Source: Podarcis pityusensis
Taxonomy: Eukaryota
Direction: 5' to 3' (one strand)
Length of the DNA stretch: 64,000 nt
Assembly: GCA_964106645.2 (NCBI GenBank)
Contig: OZ067041.1
Shown here: positions 28,409 through 48,567 of the stretch, piece by piece
Layout: each line of letters starts with the position of its first letter
Numbering within the stretch: position 1 is the stretch's first letter
Translations under genes and position numbers: made by a program
The notes under the pieces: generated by a model
The model's database searches: none
Seen by the model: only the letters and a program-made list of their open reading frames with translations
What the model was told of the DNA's origin: nothing

Positions 28409-29963
28409 GGTAAAGGAGGAGAGAAAGAGATGGTCCCATCTGCTTTTGGCTCTTACCCCACATACCACCAGCATGTTCCCAATAAATTACCCCAGAGGGA
28501 ATACAGCACTTGAGAGTCAGGCGGCTGCCCTTCTCTGCATTAAACTATACAAACAGGGGACTATAGAATGTTACAACAGCATTTATCTGAAAGTACATGC
28601 CATTAATGCTCAGTTTTATTACCATTTAAATCAAAGATCTTATCAATAAATGAACAATTAAATGCCAGATGTTTTTCTTGCCTATGAAATGTACAATTAT
28701 TTACCCATGACAGTGGAGGGCATGGGCTAGGTAGTACATCCAATTAACTGACCCGAAGAGAATCTGCATTACTTACGAACTAACTTATTTAGTTTTCAGG
28801 TACTAAGTACATTGCAGTAATTTAAAGGATACTAATAAGACACGGGCTTCTGTATATTTTACTCCCATAAAGAAGAAAATTCTCTGCAAACACTGCTGTA
28901 GAACATTGTTAGCTTCTTCATCTGAGATAACATTAACTCCCATAACAGGGTTCAATGAACTAAATATTAGCCCATCCAATGTACAAGGCCCATTAATGTA
29001 AACCACCAGGACTAACACTCAAGCTGGATGTTGCTGGTGCAATTCAATTATCACCAGCAATCAATTTCCATTTTCACTTTTTTAAGATAAGCAATGGAAT
29101 TGTTAATGATACGACAGGCAGAATGGATTTTACAGCAGAAAAAATAGTCAAGAAAATATAGCACAAGAAATAGCATATATCATACCTAAAGCAAAGTAAC
29201 GTAGAAATAAAACCAAGCACTACTAATTTATTCTCTATTTATCGTTTATTTTGTATTTTTTTACTTGTTTCATGAGATAATCCAGCTAATACGAAGCGTT
29301 TTAAAATCCCTTTTATTGTAATTGTGGAGTTATGCACTTGCTTAGGGCTGCAACCCTAAACTTGCTTGCTATAGAGTAAGCTCCACTGGGATGCTGTGGG
29401 GCTTGCTTCTAGGTCAACATGCATGGGATTGCAATGTAAGTCATTCCTATTGAAATGAATATAATTTAAAAGGGCTTCGTTGTAGGGAGAAAATGAGCAC
29501 TGCTTTTATAGACAGTCACCATGAATTGTTATAAAATACCATACCATACCATACCATACCATTCCATATACAGTGGTGCCCTGCAAGACGAACGCCCCGC
29601 AAGACGAAAAACTCGCGAGACGAAAGGTTTTTTCGTTTTCGAGTTGCTTCGCAAGATGCATTTCCCTATGGGCTTGCTTCGTAAGACGAAAACGTCTTGC
29701 AAGTTTGTTTCCTTTTTCGTAAAACCGTTAAAACCCAGGGTGCATTGCTGGAAGAGGTGCAGTTGCGACTTGACTTCGAGGAGCAACACATTGCACGTGG
29801 TGTGGTGGCCTTTTTGAGCTTTTTAAAGAGTTTGCTGAATTTTTGAAGCTTTTCCAAAACTTCTTTTGCAGCTGTTTGGTAAGTTAAACTTTTAAAACTT
29901 TTTTGGGGGTTTTTGGATTTTGGGTTGGGGTGTTTAGAATTCAAGGATTTGGTGTTGGGGAGA

Positions 29964-30460
29964 GGTTTGCGAGAATCTGGGAGCTTGTGTGGTTTTTTTC
30001 TGCATTTTTATGATTTTCTGTGACCATTGGGCCATGTTTATTTTTTTTTGAAAAAAAAATCTGGGTTTGAATTTCTGTGTGCTGGGTGGCTGGGGGAACA
30101 GCTGGGAAGGGGTTTGCAAGAATCTGGGAGCTTGTGTGGGGTTTTTTTTGAATTTTTATGGTTTTCTGTGACCATTGGGCCATGTTGTTGTTTTTTGAAA
30201 AAATTTCTGGGTTTTGAATTTCTGTGTGCTGGGTGGCTGGGGGAACAGCTGGGGAGGGGTTTGCAAAAATCTGGGAGCTTGTGTGGGTTTTTTTTTTATT
30301 TTTTATGGTTTTCTGTGACCATTGGGCCATGTTGGTTTTTTTTGAAAAAATTTCTGGGTTTTGAATTTCTGTGTGCTGGGTGGATGGGGGAACAGTTGAG
30401 GAGGGGTTTGCAACAGTTGGGGAGGGGTTTGCAACAGTTGGGGAGGGGCTGGGGGAACAG
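29964..30460 (+). repeat. Tandem array: 3 x 147-bp units then 21-bp units, inside the Tigger leader
   Basis: Anchor GGTTTGC recurs at 29964, 30111, 30258 and 30405, followed by GCAACAGTTGGGGAGGGGTTT repeats. Confidence 0.95.
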
Positions 30461-30701
30461 TTGAGGTTTTTGAAGACTTTGGTGATTTTTAAAGCTTTCC
30501 CAAAACTTCTTTTGCAGCCATTTGAGGATTTTGAAGACTTTGGTGATTTGCAGCCATTTCGTAAGTTAAACTTTTAAAACTTTTTTGGGGTTTTTTGGAT
30601 TTTGGGTTGGGTGTTTGGAATTCAAGGACTTGGTTCTGGGTTTGAATTGCTGATTTTTTTTTTCCTTTTTCTGAGTTTACGAAGGTAAGAGCTGTGCTGC
30701 C

Positions 30702-32405
30702 ATGGGACCCAAGAAGACTGCTGCTGCTGCGGAGGCCGGCAAGAGGAAGAAGGAGAAGGTGACGCTGGAAATGAAGAAGGAGATCATCTGGAAGCACGAT
30801 GGTGGAATGCGTGTGACGGACCTTGCCAGGGAGTACGGCAGGAACCCATCGACCATCGGGACCATCCTGAAGATGAGGGAGAAGATCCTTGCGACTGATG
30901 CAGCCAAGGGAGTCACCAGGATCGTGAAGAACCGCCCAGCTGTTCTGGAGGAGGTCGAGAAGTTGCTGCTCATCTGGTTAGAAGAGAAGCAGCGTGCAGG
31001 GGACACAGTGACTGAGGCCGTCATTTGTGAGAAGGCCAAGGCCTTGCACGCAGACCTCATCCGGGAACAGCCAGGAACCTCAGGCGAGCCAGAAGTCTTC
31101 AAGGCAATCAGAGGCTGGTTTGACCGGTTCAAGGCAAGATCTGGAATCCACAGCGTGGTCAGGAATGGAGAGGCTGCCAGTTCTGATGTTCCTGCGGCTG
31201 AAGACTTTGCCTTGGAGTTCCTGGAGGCTGTGAAGACAGAGGGCTACGTTCCACAGCAGGTCTTCAACTGCGACGAGACCGGGCTGTTTTGGAAGAGGAT
31301 GCCCAAAAGGACTTTCCTCACACAGGAGGAGGCCAAGTTGCCTGGCCACAAGCCCATGAAGGACCGTCTGACCCTGCTCTTCTGTGCCAACGCAAGCGGC
31401 GACCTGAAGATCAAGCCCCTGCTGGTGTACCACTCGGAGGACCCACAGGCCTTCAAGAAACACAAGGTCGACAAGGAGCGGCTGAGTGTCATGTGGCGAT
31501 CCAACAGCAAGGCTTGGGTCACACGTGTGCTGTTTGTGGACTGGGTCAATCTTGCTTTTGGCCCTGCTGTCAAACAGTACCTGCTGGACAACGACCTGCC
31601 GCTGAAGGCTTTGCTTCTGATGGACAATGCTCCTGCTCATCCTAAAGGCCTTGAGGTGGACTTGTTGGAGGAGTTCAGCTTCATCAACATCATGTTCCTG
31701 CCGCCTAACACCACGCCACTGCTCCAGCTGATGGATCAGCAGGTCTTCGCCAATTTCAAAAAACTCTACACCAAGGAGCTTTTCAGGCGATGCTTCGAGG
31801 TGACTGATTGCACCACCATCACCCTGCGGGAATTCTGGAAGGACCACTTCGACATCGTCACCTGCTTGAAGATGATCACCACGGCCTGGAACGGGATGAG
31901 CCAGAGAAATTTGAGTGGCGCTTGGCGCAGCCTGTGGCCGGACTGTGTGGCACCAAGTGACTCTGATGCACCAGAGTCAACAGTGGCGCAGGACATTGTT
32001 GCCTTGGGGAGGACCATGGGCCTGGAGGTCACAGAGGAGGACGTCTGCGAGCTGGTGGAGGAGCACGACCACGAGCTGACCACCCAGGAGCTGGTTGAAC
32101 TGCAGTCAGAGGTTGCGCAGGAGCAGGCCTCGCTGGAAGAGGAGGAAGCAACTGAGGAACGGCCGTCCTCCAAAGAACTGAGGGACATATGCCAGAAGTG
32201 GAAGGAGGTGCAGGCTTTTGCAGAGCGGCACCACTCTAACAAGCACGTGGCACATGACCTAGCGAACACTTTTGATACGACGGTCATGTTGCCTCTCAGG
32301 GAGCTGCTGAAAAGGCGGATGAAGCAGCAGACCATGGACAGGTTCCTCAGCAAGAAGCAAAGAGTGGAAGAGGAACCTTCTTCAAATGGTCCCCCAGAGT
32401 CTTAG
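30702..32405 (+). CDS. Tigger/pogo transposase, 567 aa (TIGD1-like; CENP-B-type HTH domains plus DDE_1 domain, DD36D)
   Basis: Strong Kozak GCTGCCATGG. N-terminal HTH (VTDLAREYGRNPSTIGTILK), second HTH ending RGWFDRFK, catalytic FNCDETG, MDNAPAH and MDQ with 36 residues between D2 and D3, C-terminal PIP-box-like QQTMDRFL. Confidence 0.96.
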   Translation: MGPKKTAAAAEAGKRKKEKVTLEMKKEIIWKHDGGMRVTDLAREYGRNPSTIGTILKMREKILATDAAKGVTRIVKNRPAVLEEVEKLLLIWLEEKQRAGDTVTEAVICEKAKALHADLIREQPGTSGEPEVFKAIRGWFDRFKARSGIHSVVRNGEAASSDVPAAEDFALEFLEAVKTEGYVPQQVFNCDETGLFWKRMPKRTFLTQEEAKLPGHKPMKDRLTLLFCANASGDLKIKPLLVYHSEDPQAFKKHKVDKERLSVMWRSNSKAWVTRVLFVDWVNLAFGPAVKQYLLDNDLPLKALLLMDNAPAHPKGLEVDLLEEFSFINIMFLPPNTTPLLQLMDQQVFANFKKLYTKELFRRCFEVTDCTTITLREFWKDHFDIVTCLKMITTAWNGMSQRNLSGAWRSLWPDCVAPSDSDAPESTVAQDIVALGRTMGLEVTEEDVCELVEEHDHELTTQELVELQSEVAQEQASLEEEEATEERPSSKELRDICQKWKEVQAFAERHHSNKHVAHDLANTFDTTVMLPLRELLKRRMKQQTMDRFLSKKQRVEEEPSSNGPPES

Positions 32406-33294
32406 AAAATGTAATGTACCCTTTTTTGATTTTTAAATGTTTTTCCTGTCATGTTTAGAAACTTAATTTATTGTTCCTTCAATTTTTGATATGCTCTTTA
32501 AAGTATGTGTGACTTTAAAGAGCAGTTAATAAACTATTGTTGTATCAAATTTGGCTTTGATTGGACTTTTTTTGACCATAGGAACGCATTAATTGAATTT
32601 CAATGCATTCCTATGGGAAACCGTGCTTCGCAAGACGAAAAATTCGCTAGACGAAAAAACTCGCGGAATGAATTAATTTCGTCTTGCGAGGCACCACTGT
32701 AATAACATGTAAATAAAATGAGCAATTAGCCATAAAATCAGCCTACTATTCCCCCCCTATTTGTTTGTCTTCGTCCTGCACTTCAATGCCCTCTGCAACT
32801 GGGCAGCAGCCTTACTAGGATATAATGGTAAGGAGAGATTGCCAACCACCTGGCAATCACCTGGCATCATTATTACATCACGTTACAACTTCAAAAGAGG
32901 TTGTTGTCAGCATCAATCAGCTGACTGGCACTGAGAACAGGTGTGATTTTGCTTCAGCCCACACCTACAAATGGACATATTTCCTCTGCAGAGTGGCAAA
33001 GCTGCCTGTAAATGGGGGGAAATGTCTGTTTCCAGGTCCAGTTTGAAACCAAACCATGCTAGCAAACAGGCTACTTTGAAGTAGCTTGGTGTCAGCACCA
33101 ATCAGCTGTTGGCCCTGTCAGCAAGCCCCACTTGCCAATGAACAATTGAGAGTATACTTTAAGCTCCCAATTGCTCCTTTGCCACTGAACCTTTAACCAC
33201 AACAGGTGGTTTTGGTGAGGCAACAGCCCTGCATGCCAAATTAGGATTCCTGTGGGAACTACATAACTCTGTGGGGTGGAAGTTTTGCGCCATG

Positions 33295-33605: not shown

Positions 33606-34182
33606 TAGAATCATAGAATCATAGAATCATAGAGTTGGAAGAGACCACAAGCGCCATCGAGTCCAACCCCCTGCCAAGCAGGAAACACCATCAGAGTACT
33701 CCTGACATATGGTTGTCAAGCCTCTGCTTAAAGACCTCCAAAGAAGGAGACTCCACCACACTCCTTGGCAGCAAATTCCACTGTTGAACAGCTCTTACTG
33801 TCAGGAAGTTCTTCCTAATGTTTAGGTGGAATCTTCTTTCTTGTAGTTTGGATCCATTGCTCCGTGTCCGCTTCTCTGGAGCAGCAGAAAACAACATTTC
33901 TCCCTCCTCTATGTGACATCCTTTTATATATTTGAACATGGCTATCATATCACCCCTTAACCTCCTCTTCTCCAGGCTAAACATGCCCAGCTCCCTTAGC
34001 CGTTCCTCATAAGGCATCGTTTCCAGGCCTTTGACCATTTTGGTTGCCCTCCTCTGGACACGTTCCAGTTTGTCAGTGTCCTTCTTGAATTGTGGTGCCC
34101 AGAACTGGACACAGTACTCCAGGTGAGGTCTGACCAGAGCAGAATACAGTGGCACTATTACTTCCCTTGATCTAGATGCTAT
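33606..34182 (-). mobile_element. Young 5'-truncated CR1 LINE
   Basis: (ATTCTATG)n tail. Uninterrupted ORF2 C-terminus ([15 protein letters not shown]...[11 protein letters not shown]...WNLLP). Short TSD AGGTCA at 33600-33605 and 34183-34188. Confidence 0.95.
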
Positions 34183-46843: not shown

Positions 46844-47944
46844 GTTGTTGTTGTTTAGTCGTTTAGTCGTGTCCGACTCTTCATGACCCCATGGACCAGA
46901 GCACGCCAGGCACTTCTGTCTTCCACTGTCTCCCGCAGTTTGGTCAGACTCATGTTTGTAGCGTCGAGAACACTGTCCAACCATCTCGTCCTCTGTCGTC
47001 CCCTTCTCCTTGTGCCCTCAATCTTTCCCAACATCAGGGTCTTTTCCAGGGAGTCTTCTCTTCTCATGAGGTGGCCAAAGTATTGGAGCCTCAGCTTCAC
47101 GATCTGTCCTTCCAGTGAGCACTCAGGGCTGATTTCCTTAAGAATGGATGCGTTTGATCTTCTTGCAGTCCATGGGACTCTCAAGAGTCTCCTCCAGCAC
47201 CATAATTCAAAAGCATTAATTCTTCGGCGATCAGCCTTCTTTATGGTCCAGCTCTCACTTCCATACATCACTACTGGGAAAACCATGGCTTTTACTATAC
47301 GGACCTTTGTTGGCAAGGTGATGTCTCTGCTTTTTAAGATGTTGTCTAGGTTTGCCATCACCTTTCTCCCAAGGAGCAGGCGTCTTTTAATTTCGTGACT
47401 GCTGTCACATCTGCAGTGATCATGGAGCCCAAGAAAGTAAAATCTCTCACTGCCTCCATTTCTTCCCTTCTACTTGCCAGGAGGTGATGGGACTAGTGGC
47501 CATGATCTTCGTTTTTTTGATGTTGAGCTTCAGACCATATTTTGCGCTTTCCTCATTCACCCTCATTAAAAGGTTCTTTAATTCTTCCTCACTTTCTGCC
47601 ATCAAGGTTGTGTCATCTGCATATCTGAGGTTGTTGATATTTCTTCCGGCGATCTTAATTCCGGCTTGGGATTCATCCAGCCCACCCTTTCGCATGATGA
47701 ATTCTGCATATAAGTTAAATAAGCAGGGAGACAATATACAGCCTTGCCGTACTCCTTTCCCAATTTTGAACCAATCAGTTGTTCCATATCCAGTTCTAAC
47801 TGTAGCTTCTTGTCCCACATAGAGATTTCTCAGGAGACAGATGAGGTGATCAGGCACTCCCATTTCTTTAAGAACTTGCCATAGTTTGCTGTGGTCGACA
47901 CAGTCAAAGGCTTTTGCATAGTCAATGAAGATGTCTTTCTGGAA
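46844..47944 (-). mobile_element. BovB (RTE) LINE, 5'-truncated, 1.1 kb
   Basis: RT motifs GVRQGCILSP and LRYADDTTL, C-terminal FELWCWRRLLRVPW, (CAA)n tail. 14-bp TSD CTGGCAGGGGAAAT at 46830-46843 and 47945-47958. Frameshifted near 47400-47460. Confidence 0.96.
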
Positions 47945-48567
47945 CTGGCAGGGGAAATAGGGGTCTCCTAACCATGCTCAGCACGCTTGATAAACAATAA
48001 ATTGAATTATCTTTGATTTTCAGACACTAGCCTTTTTTATTAAAAAAACAAGTGCATAACAGTAAAGAGTTTCTGAACTTACTAAATCAGTTCTGATTTA
48101 GCATGAGACTTTTCTTTTTTAAAAAATGCCCTGCTAAGGCAAATTTCAAAGCAAATGCAGTTCAGTGTTCTCATATTGCAAGTTGTAAGGGGTTGCGGTG
48201 GGGAGAGTGAATTATGACAACCTTGCAGTGTTGTTCATAATGAATACTGCAGGTTAGGCTCTGAGTGATTTACACAAAGCCCTGCATTGTTATCACGACC
48301 CTTATTGGAGGTTGGGATCTGTGTACCAATAAGGAAATGAACTTAAATGACATCGGTGTTTATTAGAAAACCTAGAAGAACCATTTATACATGTGTTAAG
48401 TCCTGCAAATTTAACATCATTCATATGACAAGTACAACTTTAACGACTGGGAAATTTGTTTTTTTAGCATTACCGATTTTGGAGTGTGGAGAAATACTCT
48501 CATTTTAAAATAAGAAGGAAGATAGGTAGGAAAGTGGGTAGATATGATATGGGGAAAATAGGCTGTA

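What the first reader, a model, noticed from the sequence alone, without database searches (positions are those of the whole stretch)
29571..32699. Complete, coding-intact DD36D Tigger transposon: a candidate recently active family
Seen: both TIRs, the TA duplication, strong Kozak context, an uninterrupted 567-aa ORF with all three catalytic aspartates, a PIP-box-like C-terminus and a poly(A) signal. Known: most amniote Tiggers are fossils or TIR-less domesticated TIGD genes. Inference: this is a young mobile copy, not a domesticated gene. Four residues depart from the motifs I recall for the family: KAIRGW (usually KASRGW), RNGE (RHGE), EDPQAF (ENPRAF) and QLMDQ (QPMDQ). Two are explicable as CpG transitions (CGG>CAG, CCG>CTG), consistent with early neutral decay. 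A consensus repair could give a working transposase.
Basis: partly seen in the sequence, partly recalled or inferred. Interest (0 to 1): 0.7.

Follow-up and report, generated by a model that had tools for sequence, protein, structure and literature searches.

The report
Young lizard Tigger swarm, worn copy
This complete 3.1-kb jumping gene is one of about 270 gene-carrying copies of a Tigger DNA transposon in a lizard genome; it is likely disabled by its own mutations, but at least 50 copies keep intact ends and genes, and the family likely last spread about a million years ago.

Summary
In detail: 22-bp TIRs, TA duplication, an open 567-aa frame and a DD36D triad. It is a mobile-type Tigger copy, not a domesticated gene. 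The genome holds 268 matches to the coding region and over 3,000 exact element ends, mostly MITEs. Of 102 coding copies examined, 50 have both TIRs, an open frame and all three aspartates; a published survey found at most 8 intact copies in any vertebrate and listed no Podarcis, Lacerta or Zootoca. Private changes are neutral, while inherited changes in the DNA-binding and catalytic core are purged, as expected of a transposon. This copy is the most worn of its clade: 14 amino-acid changes, 7 at strongly conserved sites, so it is likely dead and its open frame is what neutral decay allows. Waves date to roughly 3-6, 2-4 and 1-1.5 million years. No two copies are identical, so present activity is not shown. 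Hints remain: sense RNA in a relative, a possible empty allele, near-identical Lacerta copies. Repair is unnecessary: two natural copies match their clade's majority protein. The scan noted this family before in this genome (e1-9552319). New member of a known kind.

The parts
29569..29570 (.). left TA target-site duplication
   Evidence: sequence
29571..29592 (+). left TIR, 22 bp; one CpG change against sister copies
29593..29692 (+). left sub-terminal repeats of the inner TIR motif (likely extra transposase sites; inferred)
   Evidence: families D8, D14, D15
29879..29886 (+). probable 5'-UTR splice donor (G|GTAAGT), at a nearly fixed 308-310 nt from the left end in most copies; a second copy at 30561
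   Evidence: splicing from this donor not shown directly
29950..30466 (+). 147-bp tandem repeat (about 3 units) plus 21-bp repeats; 0-7 units among copies, explains most length variation; lies in the probable intron
   Evidence: r = 0.90 between unit count and 5' length
30683..30684 (+). splice acceptor AG after a pyrimidine tract, 17 nt before the ATG
   Evidence: 72 RNA reads of a related organism join a foreign exon at 30685; one search places them on another, deleted copy
30702..32405 (+). transposase ORF, 567 aa, 14 amino-acid changes against its clade
30741..30893 (+). CENP-B_N helix-turn-helix (aa 14-64)
30948..31154 (+). HTH_Tnp_Tc5 (aa 83-151); carries S136I at a site with S in 116 of 120 homologues
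31272..31274 (+). first catalytic aspartate D191
31359..31925 (+). DDE_1 domain (aa 220-408) with D308 (31623-31625) and D345 (31734-31736); carries P343L and I349F, residues seen in 0 of 120 homologues
32169..32348 (+). C-terminal helices (aa 490-549), where inherited family changes are 16 non-synonymous to 1 synonymous; ends in the PIP-like box QQTMDRFL (32325-32348)
32528..32533 (+). AATAAA poly(A) signal (use not tested)
32623..32677 (+). right sub-terminal repeats
32678..32699 (-). right TIR, 22 bp
32700..32701 (.). right TA target-site duplication

Best explanation
This is a full-length copy of a high-copy Tigger (pogo) DNA transposon of lacertid lizards that likely inserted at this TA by cut-and-paste about 2-4 million years ago and has likely decayed neutrally since, so that its own transposase is likely dead although its frame is open. 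Mechanism: a transposase from any working copy would bind the TIRs with its two helix-turn-helix domains, cut with the D191-D308-D345 RNase-H-like site and join the ends into a TA, duplicating it (anatomy and fold shown; chemistry inferred from Mos1 and Sleeping Beauty). The same enzyme mobilised thousands of MITEs with the same ends (shown by shared ends). The family spread in waves (about 3-6, 2-4 and 1-1.5 million years; inferred from one borrowed rate), with sequence exchange between copies, and selection acted only through transposition: inherited changes in the core are purged and private ones are neutral (shown). The family is likely quiet or nearly so in this genome now.
For: Copy number: 268 matches to a 30-mer in the ORF, 3,261 exact right ends, 6,054 exact left ends; 40 of 40 scored ORF hits (self plus 39 at 98%) lie on many contigs with unrelated TA flanks. 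Census of 66: 58 with both TIRs, 33 also with a frame of 560 aa or more. Selection: private changes 283 N: 114 S, omega about 0.91, p = 0.43, 12 stops against 14.0 expected; inherited core changes 10 N: 16 S against private 196: 74, p = 0.0006; inherited replacements hit conserved positions 2 of 30 times against 103 of 283, p = 0.0005. This copy: 18 nucleotide and 14 amino-acid changes against its clade, 7 at positions conserved in 106-117 of 120 homologues. Youngest 27 copies: mean 5.07 and variance 5.07 changes, as for one past burst; closest unlinked pair differs at 3 sites, none identical among 102. Fold matches Mos1 transpososome first, E 6.5e-06. A contig of organism E runs 34 nt past the right boundary without matching the TIR, consistent with an empty site (indirect).
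Against: No activity assay was possible, so the death of this protein is inferred from conservation only; all three aspartates are present. The whole-ORF contrast between private and inherited changes is not significant (p = 0.24); the signal appears when core and C-terminus are split. Ages rest on one rate (1.98e-9 per site per year, PMC8760935) and on samples biased to well-preserved copies. Hints of continuing activity exist: sense-biased RNA across the ORF in a related organism, a contig break exactly at the right TA in organism C, and Lacerta agilis copies 98.9-99.8% identical to each other (5 of 6).
Confidence: 0.85

Rival explanations
1. The family is still transposing at a low rate in wall lizards today, driven by near-majority copies such as L112 and L126, and this copy, even if its own protein is dead, can still be moved in trans.
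For: At least 50 copies with both TIRs, open frame and triad; two natural copies with no amino-acid difference from their clade majority; sense-biased reads over the ORF in two RNA runs of organism A, carrying the majority residues; a contig of organism C starts exactly at the right TA, as expected if filled and empty alleles coexist; 5 of 6 Lacerta agilis proteins 98.9-99.8% identical.
Against: No identical pair among 102 copies and no excess of near-zero copies (1 copy with one change or fewer, 1.0 expected); sampled short MITEs differ 0.6-5.2% from their majority; the RNA is from another organism and may include read-through; the contig break has other possible causes.
Confidence: 0.25
2. 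This copy is itself a working autonomous element.
For: Both TIRs, TA duplication, open frame, all three aspartates, strong start context.
Against: S136I, P343L and I349F put residues seen in 0 of 120 homologues at sites conserved in 115-117 of 120; it has the most amino-acid changes of its clade of 12; its nearest relative among 102 copies differs at 26 sites, so it left no detected daughters.
Confidence: 0.07
3. A domesticated TIGD1-like host gene that kept its TIRs.
For: Databases name the lacertid homologues 'tigger transposable element-derived protein 1-like'; the frame is open.
Against: Hundreds of dispersed copies; this copy's changes are 14 replacements of 18; probable empty site in organism E; Gao 2020 treats TIGD1-like sequences as multi-copy and not as stationary genes.
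Confidence: 0.02

Closest known systems
Tigger family of the pogo superfamily (Gao et al. 2020, PMC7386202; Diaby et al. 2022, PMC9219625)
   Same: CENP-B_N plus HTH_Tnp_Tc5 plus DDE_1, DD29-36D spacing, short CAGT-starting TIRs, TA duplication, single ORF, length within 1.0-4.5 kb.
   Different: Diaby reports at most 8 intact copies in a vertebrate and 1-2 in squamates where counted; here at least 50 were seen directly. Podarcis, Lacerta and Zootoca have 0 occurrences in that paper's text or supplement as searched. A variable 147-bp repeat sits in the 5' part.
Lacertid 'TIGD1-like' database proteins (Lacerta agilis XP_033001754.1 cluster of 45; Podarcis lilfordi CAI5784316.1; P. raffonei; P. 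muralis)
   Same: Same family: CAI5784316.1 is 99.5% identical to copy L112 and 95.1% to this copy; Lacerta proteins 89-94%.
   Different: Annotated as host genes by pipeline; no description as a transposon family was found in the papers searched.
Passer (DD35D pogo family; PMC9976928)
   Same: pogo superfamily, short TIRs, TA targets, many intact copies in some genomes; native proteins shown active in human cells.
   Different: Different family: BrkDBD, DD35D, 400-500 aa; the active Gasterosteus Passer has 99.97% transposase identity among copies, tighter than the youngest clade here.
Mos1 mariner and Sleeping Beauty transposases (solved structures)
   Same: Predicted fold matches Mos1 transpososome (E 6.5e-06) and the Sleeping Beauty catalytic domain (E 7.8e-04).
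   Different: 12-14% identity; Tc1/mariner superfamily; lack the long acidic, helical C-terminus with a PIP-like box.

Membership tests
Tigger (pogo superfamily) | [quoted passage not shown] | tested here: met
   definition from PMC7386202 passages
Tigger (pogo superfamily) | DDE_1 domain with DD29-36D triad | tested here: met
   D191, D308, D345; 36 between. DD36D alone is shared with Mover, which lacks detectable DNA-binding motifs and is not in animals
Tigger (pogo superfamily) | Short TIRs (8-33 bp) and TA target duplication | tested here: met
   22-bp TIRs and TA here and in most copies; range from PMC9219625
Tigger (pogo superfamily) | Placement inside the Tigger clade on a tree with Passer, pogoR, Lemi, Mover and Fot references | not tested
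   No such tree built. Indirect: named best hits are mostly TIGD1-like at 53-96% and the motifs match the Tigger alignment rows in the Diaby supplement
Tigger (pogo superfamily) | C-terminal PIP box Qxx[ILM]xxF[FY] | tested here: inconclusive
   QQTMDRFL matches all but the last position; the older subfamily and Lacerta have F there; consensus from PMC5371812; binding not tested
Domesticated TIGD/CENP-B-type gene | Single stationary copy without TIRs | tested here: not met
   268 ORF matches, TIRs present
Domesticated TIGD/CENP-B-type gene | Purifying selection on the locus | tested here: not met
   14 of this copy's 18 changes are replacements; private omega about 0.91
Domesticated TIGD/CENP-B-type gene | Orthologous locus shared across lizards | tested here: inconclusive
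   Contigs only: organism E consistent with an empty site, D and F uninformative
Currently active transposon | Identical or near-identical unlinked copies | tested here: not met
   Closest unlinked pair 3 differences in 1,701 nt; none identical among 102
Currently active transposon | Insertion polymorphism | tested here: inconclusive
   One contig break at the right TA in organism C; no direct empty-site join seen
Currently active transposon | Transposase transcript | tested here: inconclusive
   Sense-biased reads across the ORF in organism A, mostly 90-95% alike, source copies unknown
Currently active transposon | Excision and integration in an assay | not testable with these tools
   bench work

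The most novel reading that the evidence does not exclude
Lacertid lizards carry a still-mobile Tigger lineage, with on the order of a hundred intact copies per genome, active within about the last million years in both Podarcis and Lacerta, whose PCNA-box-bearing C-terminus is evolving adaptively (16 replacements to 1 silent change) in conflict with the host. It would supply natural, unrepaired, working amniote Tigger transposases and a living model for the family that seeded TIGD and JRK genes.
Probability: 0.25. Interest if true: 0.68.

Novelty: new member of a known kind. Interest (0 to 1): 0.42.

Why it matters
Tiggers are known mostly as fossils and as the source of several vertebrate genes; the one broad survey read here found low activity and at most 8 intact copies in a vertebrate. 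A lizard family with at least 50 intact copies, dated waves and natural copies equal to the clade majority makes Tigger biochemistry (TIR binding, PIP-box role, target choice) directly testable without reconstruction, and offers thousands of young insertions as markers for wall-lizard population history. The copy in this window is only one worn member and is not the one to test.

Tried and rejected
Tree-based counting of internal against terminal changes gave omega 0.53 against 0.82, but the contrast was not significant (p = 0.24) and is distorted by homoplasy; replaced by site-based counts. The run search listed no holder on record as RNA; raw RNA runs of the same species label were laid instead. 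The join from the donor at 29879 to the acceptor at 30685 was not among the 15 joints shown (29 more hidden), so the element's own intron is not shown. An empty-site join was not among the 15 joints shown of 326; the left flank is a skipped microsatellite. PDB sequence search gave only CENP-B DNA-binding chains. Pfam scan of 34 longer open stretches of the window found no host gene domain, only one RT fragment; short exons would be missed. Look-up of earlier notes by sequence found nothing. Paper searches found no description of this family and no Tigger activity assay; the library lacks most subscription journals, Repbase and Dfam were not available, and a 2024 survey of 130 DNA transposons in human cells (recalled, not seen) may include Tiggers. 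PMC10058329 describes a different lacertid mariner fragment. Horizontal transfer between Lacerta and Podarcis against vertical persistence could not be decided: only proteins were available. No complex prediction was run.
Full report
Observation. The element is as described. Inverted repeats of 22 bp lie at 29571-29592 and 32678-32699, each bordered by TA; the TIR pattern has 2 matches in the window against 0.00 by chance. One ORF, 30702-32405, gives 567 aa with CENP-B_N, HTH_Tnp_Tc5 and DDE_1. The aspartates are D191, D308 and D345, with 36 residues between the last two. An AlphaFold model (mean pLDDT 76.4) matches the Mos1 transpososome first (E 6.5e-06) and also the Sleeping Beauty catalytic domain. 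The best protein hits are from Lacerta, Podarcis and Zootoca, so the host is taken to be a lacertid lizard.

Family size. A search of the own genome with the ORF gave 623 candidates; the 40 scored were this copy and 39 full-length matches at 98%. A 30-mer from the ORF matches 268 places with up to one mismatch. Exact ends number 3,261 (right, 32-mer) and 6,054 (left, 24-mer); reversed-pattern controls gave 0. Of 20 right ends fetched from contig 1 (one stretch too short to judge, one without a recognised left TIR), one was a full element and 17 were non-autonomous elements of about 240, 330-356 and 855-1,003 bp. I then took every exact ORF match listed from the start of C1 to C4:88.5 Mb, 66 copies: 58 have both TIRs, 37 a frame of 560 aa or more, 33 both. 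Over all 102 copies with a near-complete ORF alignment (8 census copies with split alignments left out), 69 have an open frame with all three aspartates and 50 of these show both TIRs within the DNA fetched (48 if a tandem triplicate counts once). Scaling the census to 268 gives about 130, an upper-leaning estimate because exact matches favour well-kept copies. Diaby et al. 2022 (PMC9219625; passages, section 3.2 and supplement rows seen) give 8 as the highest intact count in vertebrates and 1-2 in squamates where counted; Podarcis, Lacerta and Zootoca have no occurrence there. Their definition of intact (over 300 aa with TIRs) is looser than mine, but their assemblies may have been more fragmented.

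Age. The copies form a ladder of subfamilies. Mean distance from the clade majority is 0.67% non-CpG and 1.14% at all sites for 12 older 566-aa copies, 0.47% and 0.76% for the 12 copies of this copy's clade, and 0.18% and 0.30% for the 27 youngest. With 1.98e-9 per site per year (PMC8760935, one passage) these are about 3.4-5.8, 2.4-3.9 and 0.9-1.5 million years; this is one borrowed rate and inherited variants inflate the figures a little. A search from a youngest-clade copy found no identical sister; the closest unlinked pair differs at 3 sites. In the youngest group variance equals mean (5.07), as for one past burst without a tail of new copies.

Selection. Counting each non-CpG variant once in 99 copies (L067, L068 and L100 dropped as likely duplicates or close pairs): private changes are 283 replacement, 114 silent and 12 stop against 288.6, 106.4 and 14.0 expected, i.e. 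neutral. Variants shared by 5 or more copies are 30: 18 (omega about 0.54, p = 0.04 against neutrality; p = 0.24 against private changes). In the DNA-binding and catalytic core they are 10: 16 against 196: 74 (p = 0.0006), and they avoid conserved positions (2 of 30 against 103 of 283, p = 0.0005). This is the pattern of a transposon: function is filtered when a copy spreads and lost after it lands. The C-terminus shows the opposite: 20: 2 in aa 411-567 and 16: 1 in aa 490-549 (p = 0.023 and 0.012 against private changes; windows chosen after seeing the data), and 8 of the 9 young-versus-old differences in aa 490-549 are derived in the young lineage when Lacerta is the outgroup. That is a lead for adaptive change near the PIP-like box, not a result. 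386 of 1,128 pairs of informative sites fail the four-gamete test, rising weakly with distance (p = 0.027), which points to sequence exchange between copies.

This copy. It differs from its clade majority at 18 nucleotides and 14 residues, the most of the 12. Seven changes hit positions conserved in 106-117 of 120 homologues (S136I, H155N, N247D, R249Q, P343L, I349F, P512S); P343L lies two residues before the third aspartate. Its nearest relative differs at 26 sites. Its open frame needs no selection, as over half of the census copies are also open. I infer that its protein is dead, while its ends could still be moved in trans.

5' anatomy. Between left TIR and ATG copies vary from 489 to 1,758 bp, mostly through 0-7 units of a 147-bp repeat (r = 0.90, 60 copies). 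A GTAAGT donor sits 308-310 nt from the left end in most copies and an acceptor 17 nt before the ATG, so the repeat probably lies in a 5'-UTR intron. RNA of a related organism covers the repeat thinly (depth 0-5) and the ORF more. The acceptor is used in at least one copy: 72 reads join a foreign exon at 30685, and that exon maps in this genome about 900 bp upstream of an internally deleted copy on C16. The element's own splice was not shown.

Evidence for and against present activity. For: in two RNA runs of organism A the middle of the ORF has depth 6-40 on one orientation against 0-8.5 on the other (sense if the library is of the usual stranded type), with majority residues; a contig of organism C (no difference from the window over 695 bp) begins exactly at the right TA, where filled and empty alleles would branch; five of six Lacerta agilis proteins are 98.9-99.8% identical to each other and 93-94% to copies here. 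Against: no identical copies; RNA is from another organism and its source copies are unknown; a contig break can have other causes. A contig of organism E, whose flank differs by 26 of 764 bases, runs 34 nt past the right boundary without matching the TIR, consistent with insertion after that split (indirect).

Comparison and verdict. All sequence features that define Tigger in Gao et al. 2020 (PMC7386202, passages) are met; the reference tree was not built. Domestication fails on copy number, TIRs and selection. No paper on this family was found in seven searches; Repbase, Dfam and subscription journals were not seen. Also read as passages: PMC9976928, PMC5371812, PMC10214862, PMC10058329. 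The copy is ordinary; the family is a new member of a known kind whose number of intact copies and youth make it a good source for testing Tigger activity. Interest 0.42.

Noticed in passing
L140:572-2192 (G000:C16 about 1,052,572-1,054,192): A GC-rich host-like exon with a GT donor lies about 900 bp upstream of an internally deleted Tigger copy (87% identical, no left TIR found). RNA of organism A fits splicing of that exon into the Tigger acceptor. The copy keeps a 119-aa frame joining the N-terminus to the C-terminal helices with a full PIP box: a possible exapted or repressor mini-protein.
   Followed up: partly
window 32169-32348 (family-wide, aa 490-549): Inherited changes 16 replacement to 1 silent, including loss of the last aromatic residue of the PIP box in the younger subfamily; possible adaptive evolution, window chosen after the fact.
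   Followed up: partly
window 33606-34182: A high-copy insertion with (ATCATAGA)n at one end, resembling a truncated CR1-type LINE (family name recalled, not tested); contigs of organisms E and F join across it, so it is a younger insertion.
   Followed up: partly
window 46855-47977, minus strand: Fragment of a LINE reverse transcriptase (Pfam RVT_1, E 5.1e-26); RTE/Bov-B-like by recalled motifs.
   Followed up: no
L066-L068 (G000:C2 7.58-7.63 Mb): Three copies 19-25 kb apart, 3-5 differences, same internal structure: likely a tandem segmental triplication rather than new jumps; flanks not compared.
   Followed up: no
L033, L036, L042, L049: An 855-935 bp MITE class shares only the outer 120 bp with the element; the two examined carry internal arrays of inverted repeats, as in note e1-9553879.
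   Followed up: partly
G000:C20: 7 of the 40 best ORF matches lie on contig C20, more than its rank suggests; possibly a non-recombining sex chromosome. Not tested.
   Followed up: no
window 29531-29568: The element inserted at a TA at the end of a short (ATACC)n microsatellite.
   Followed up: no
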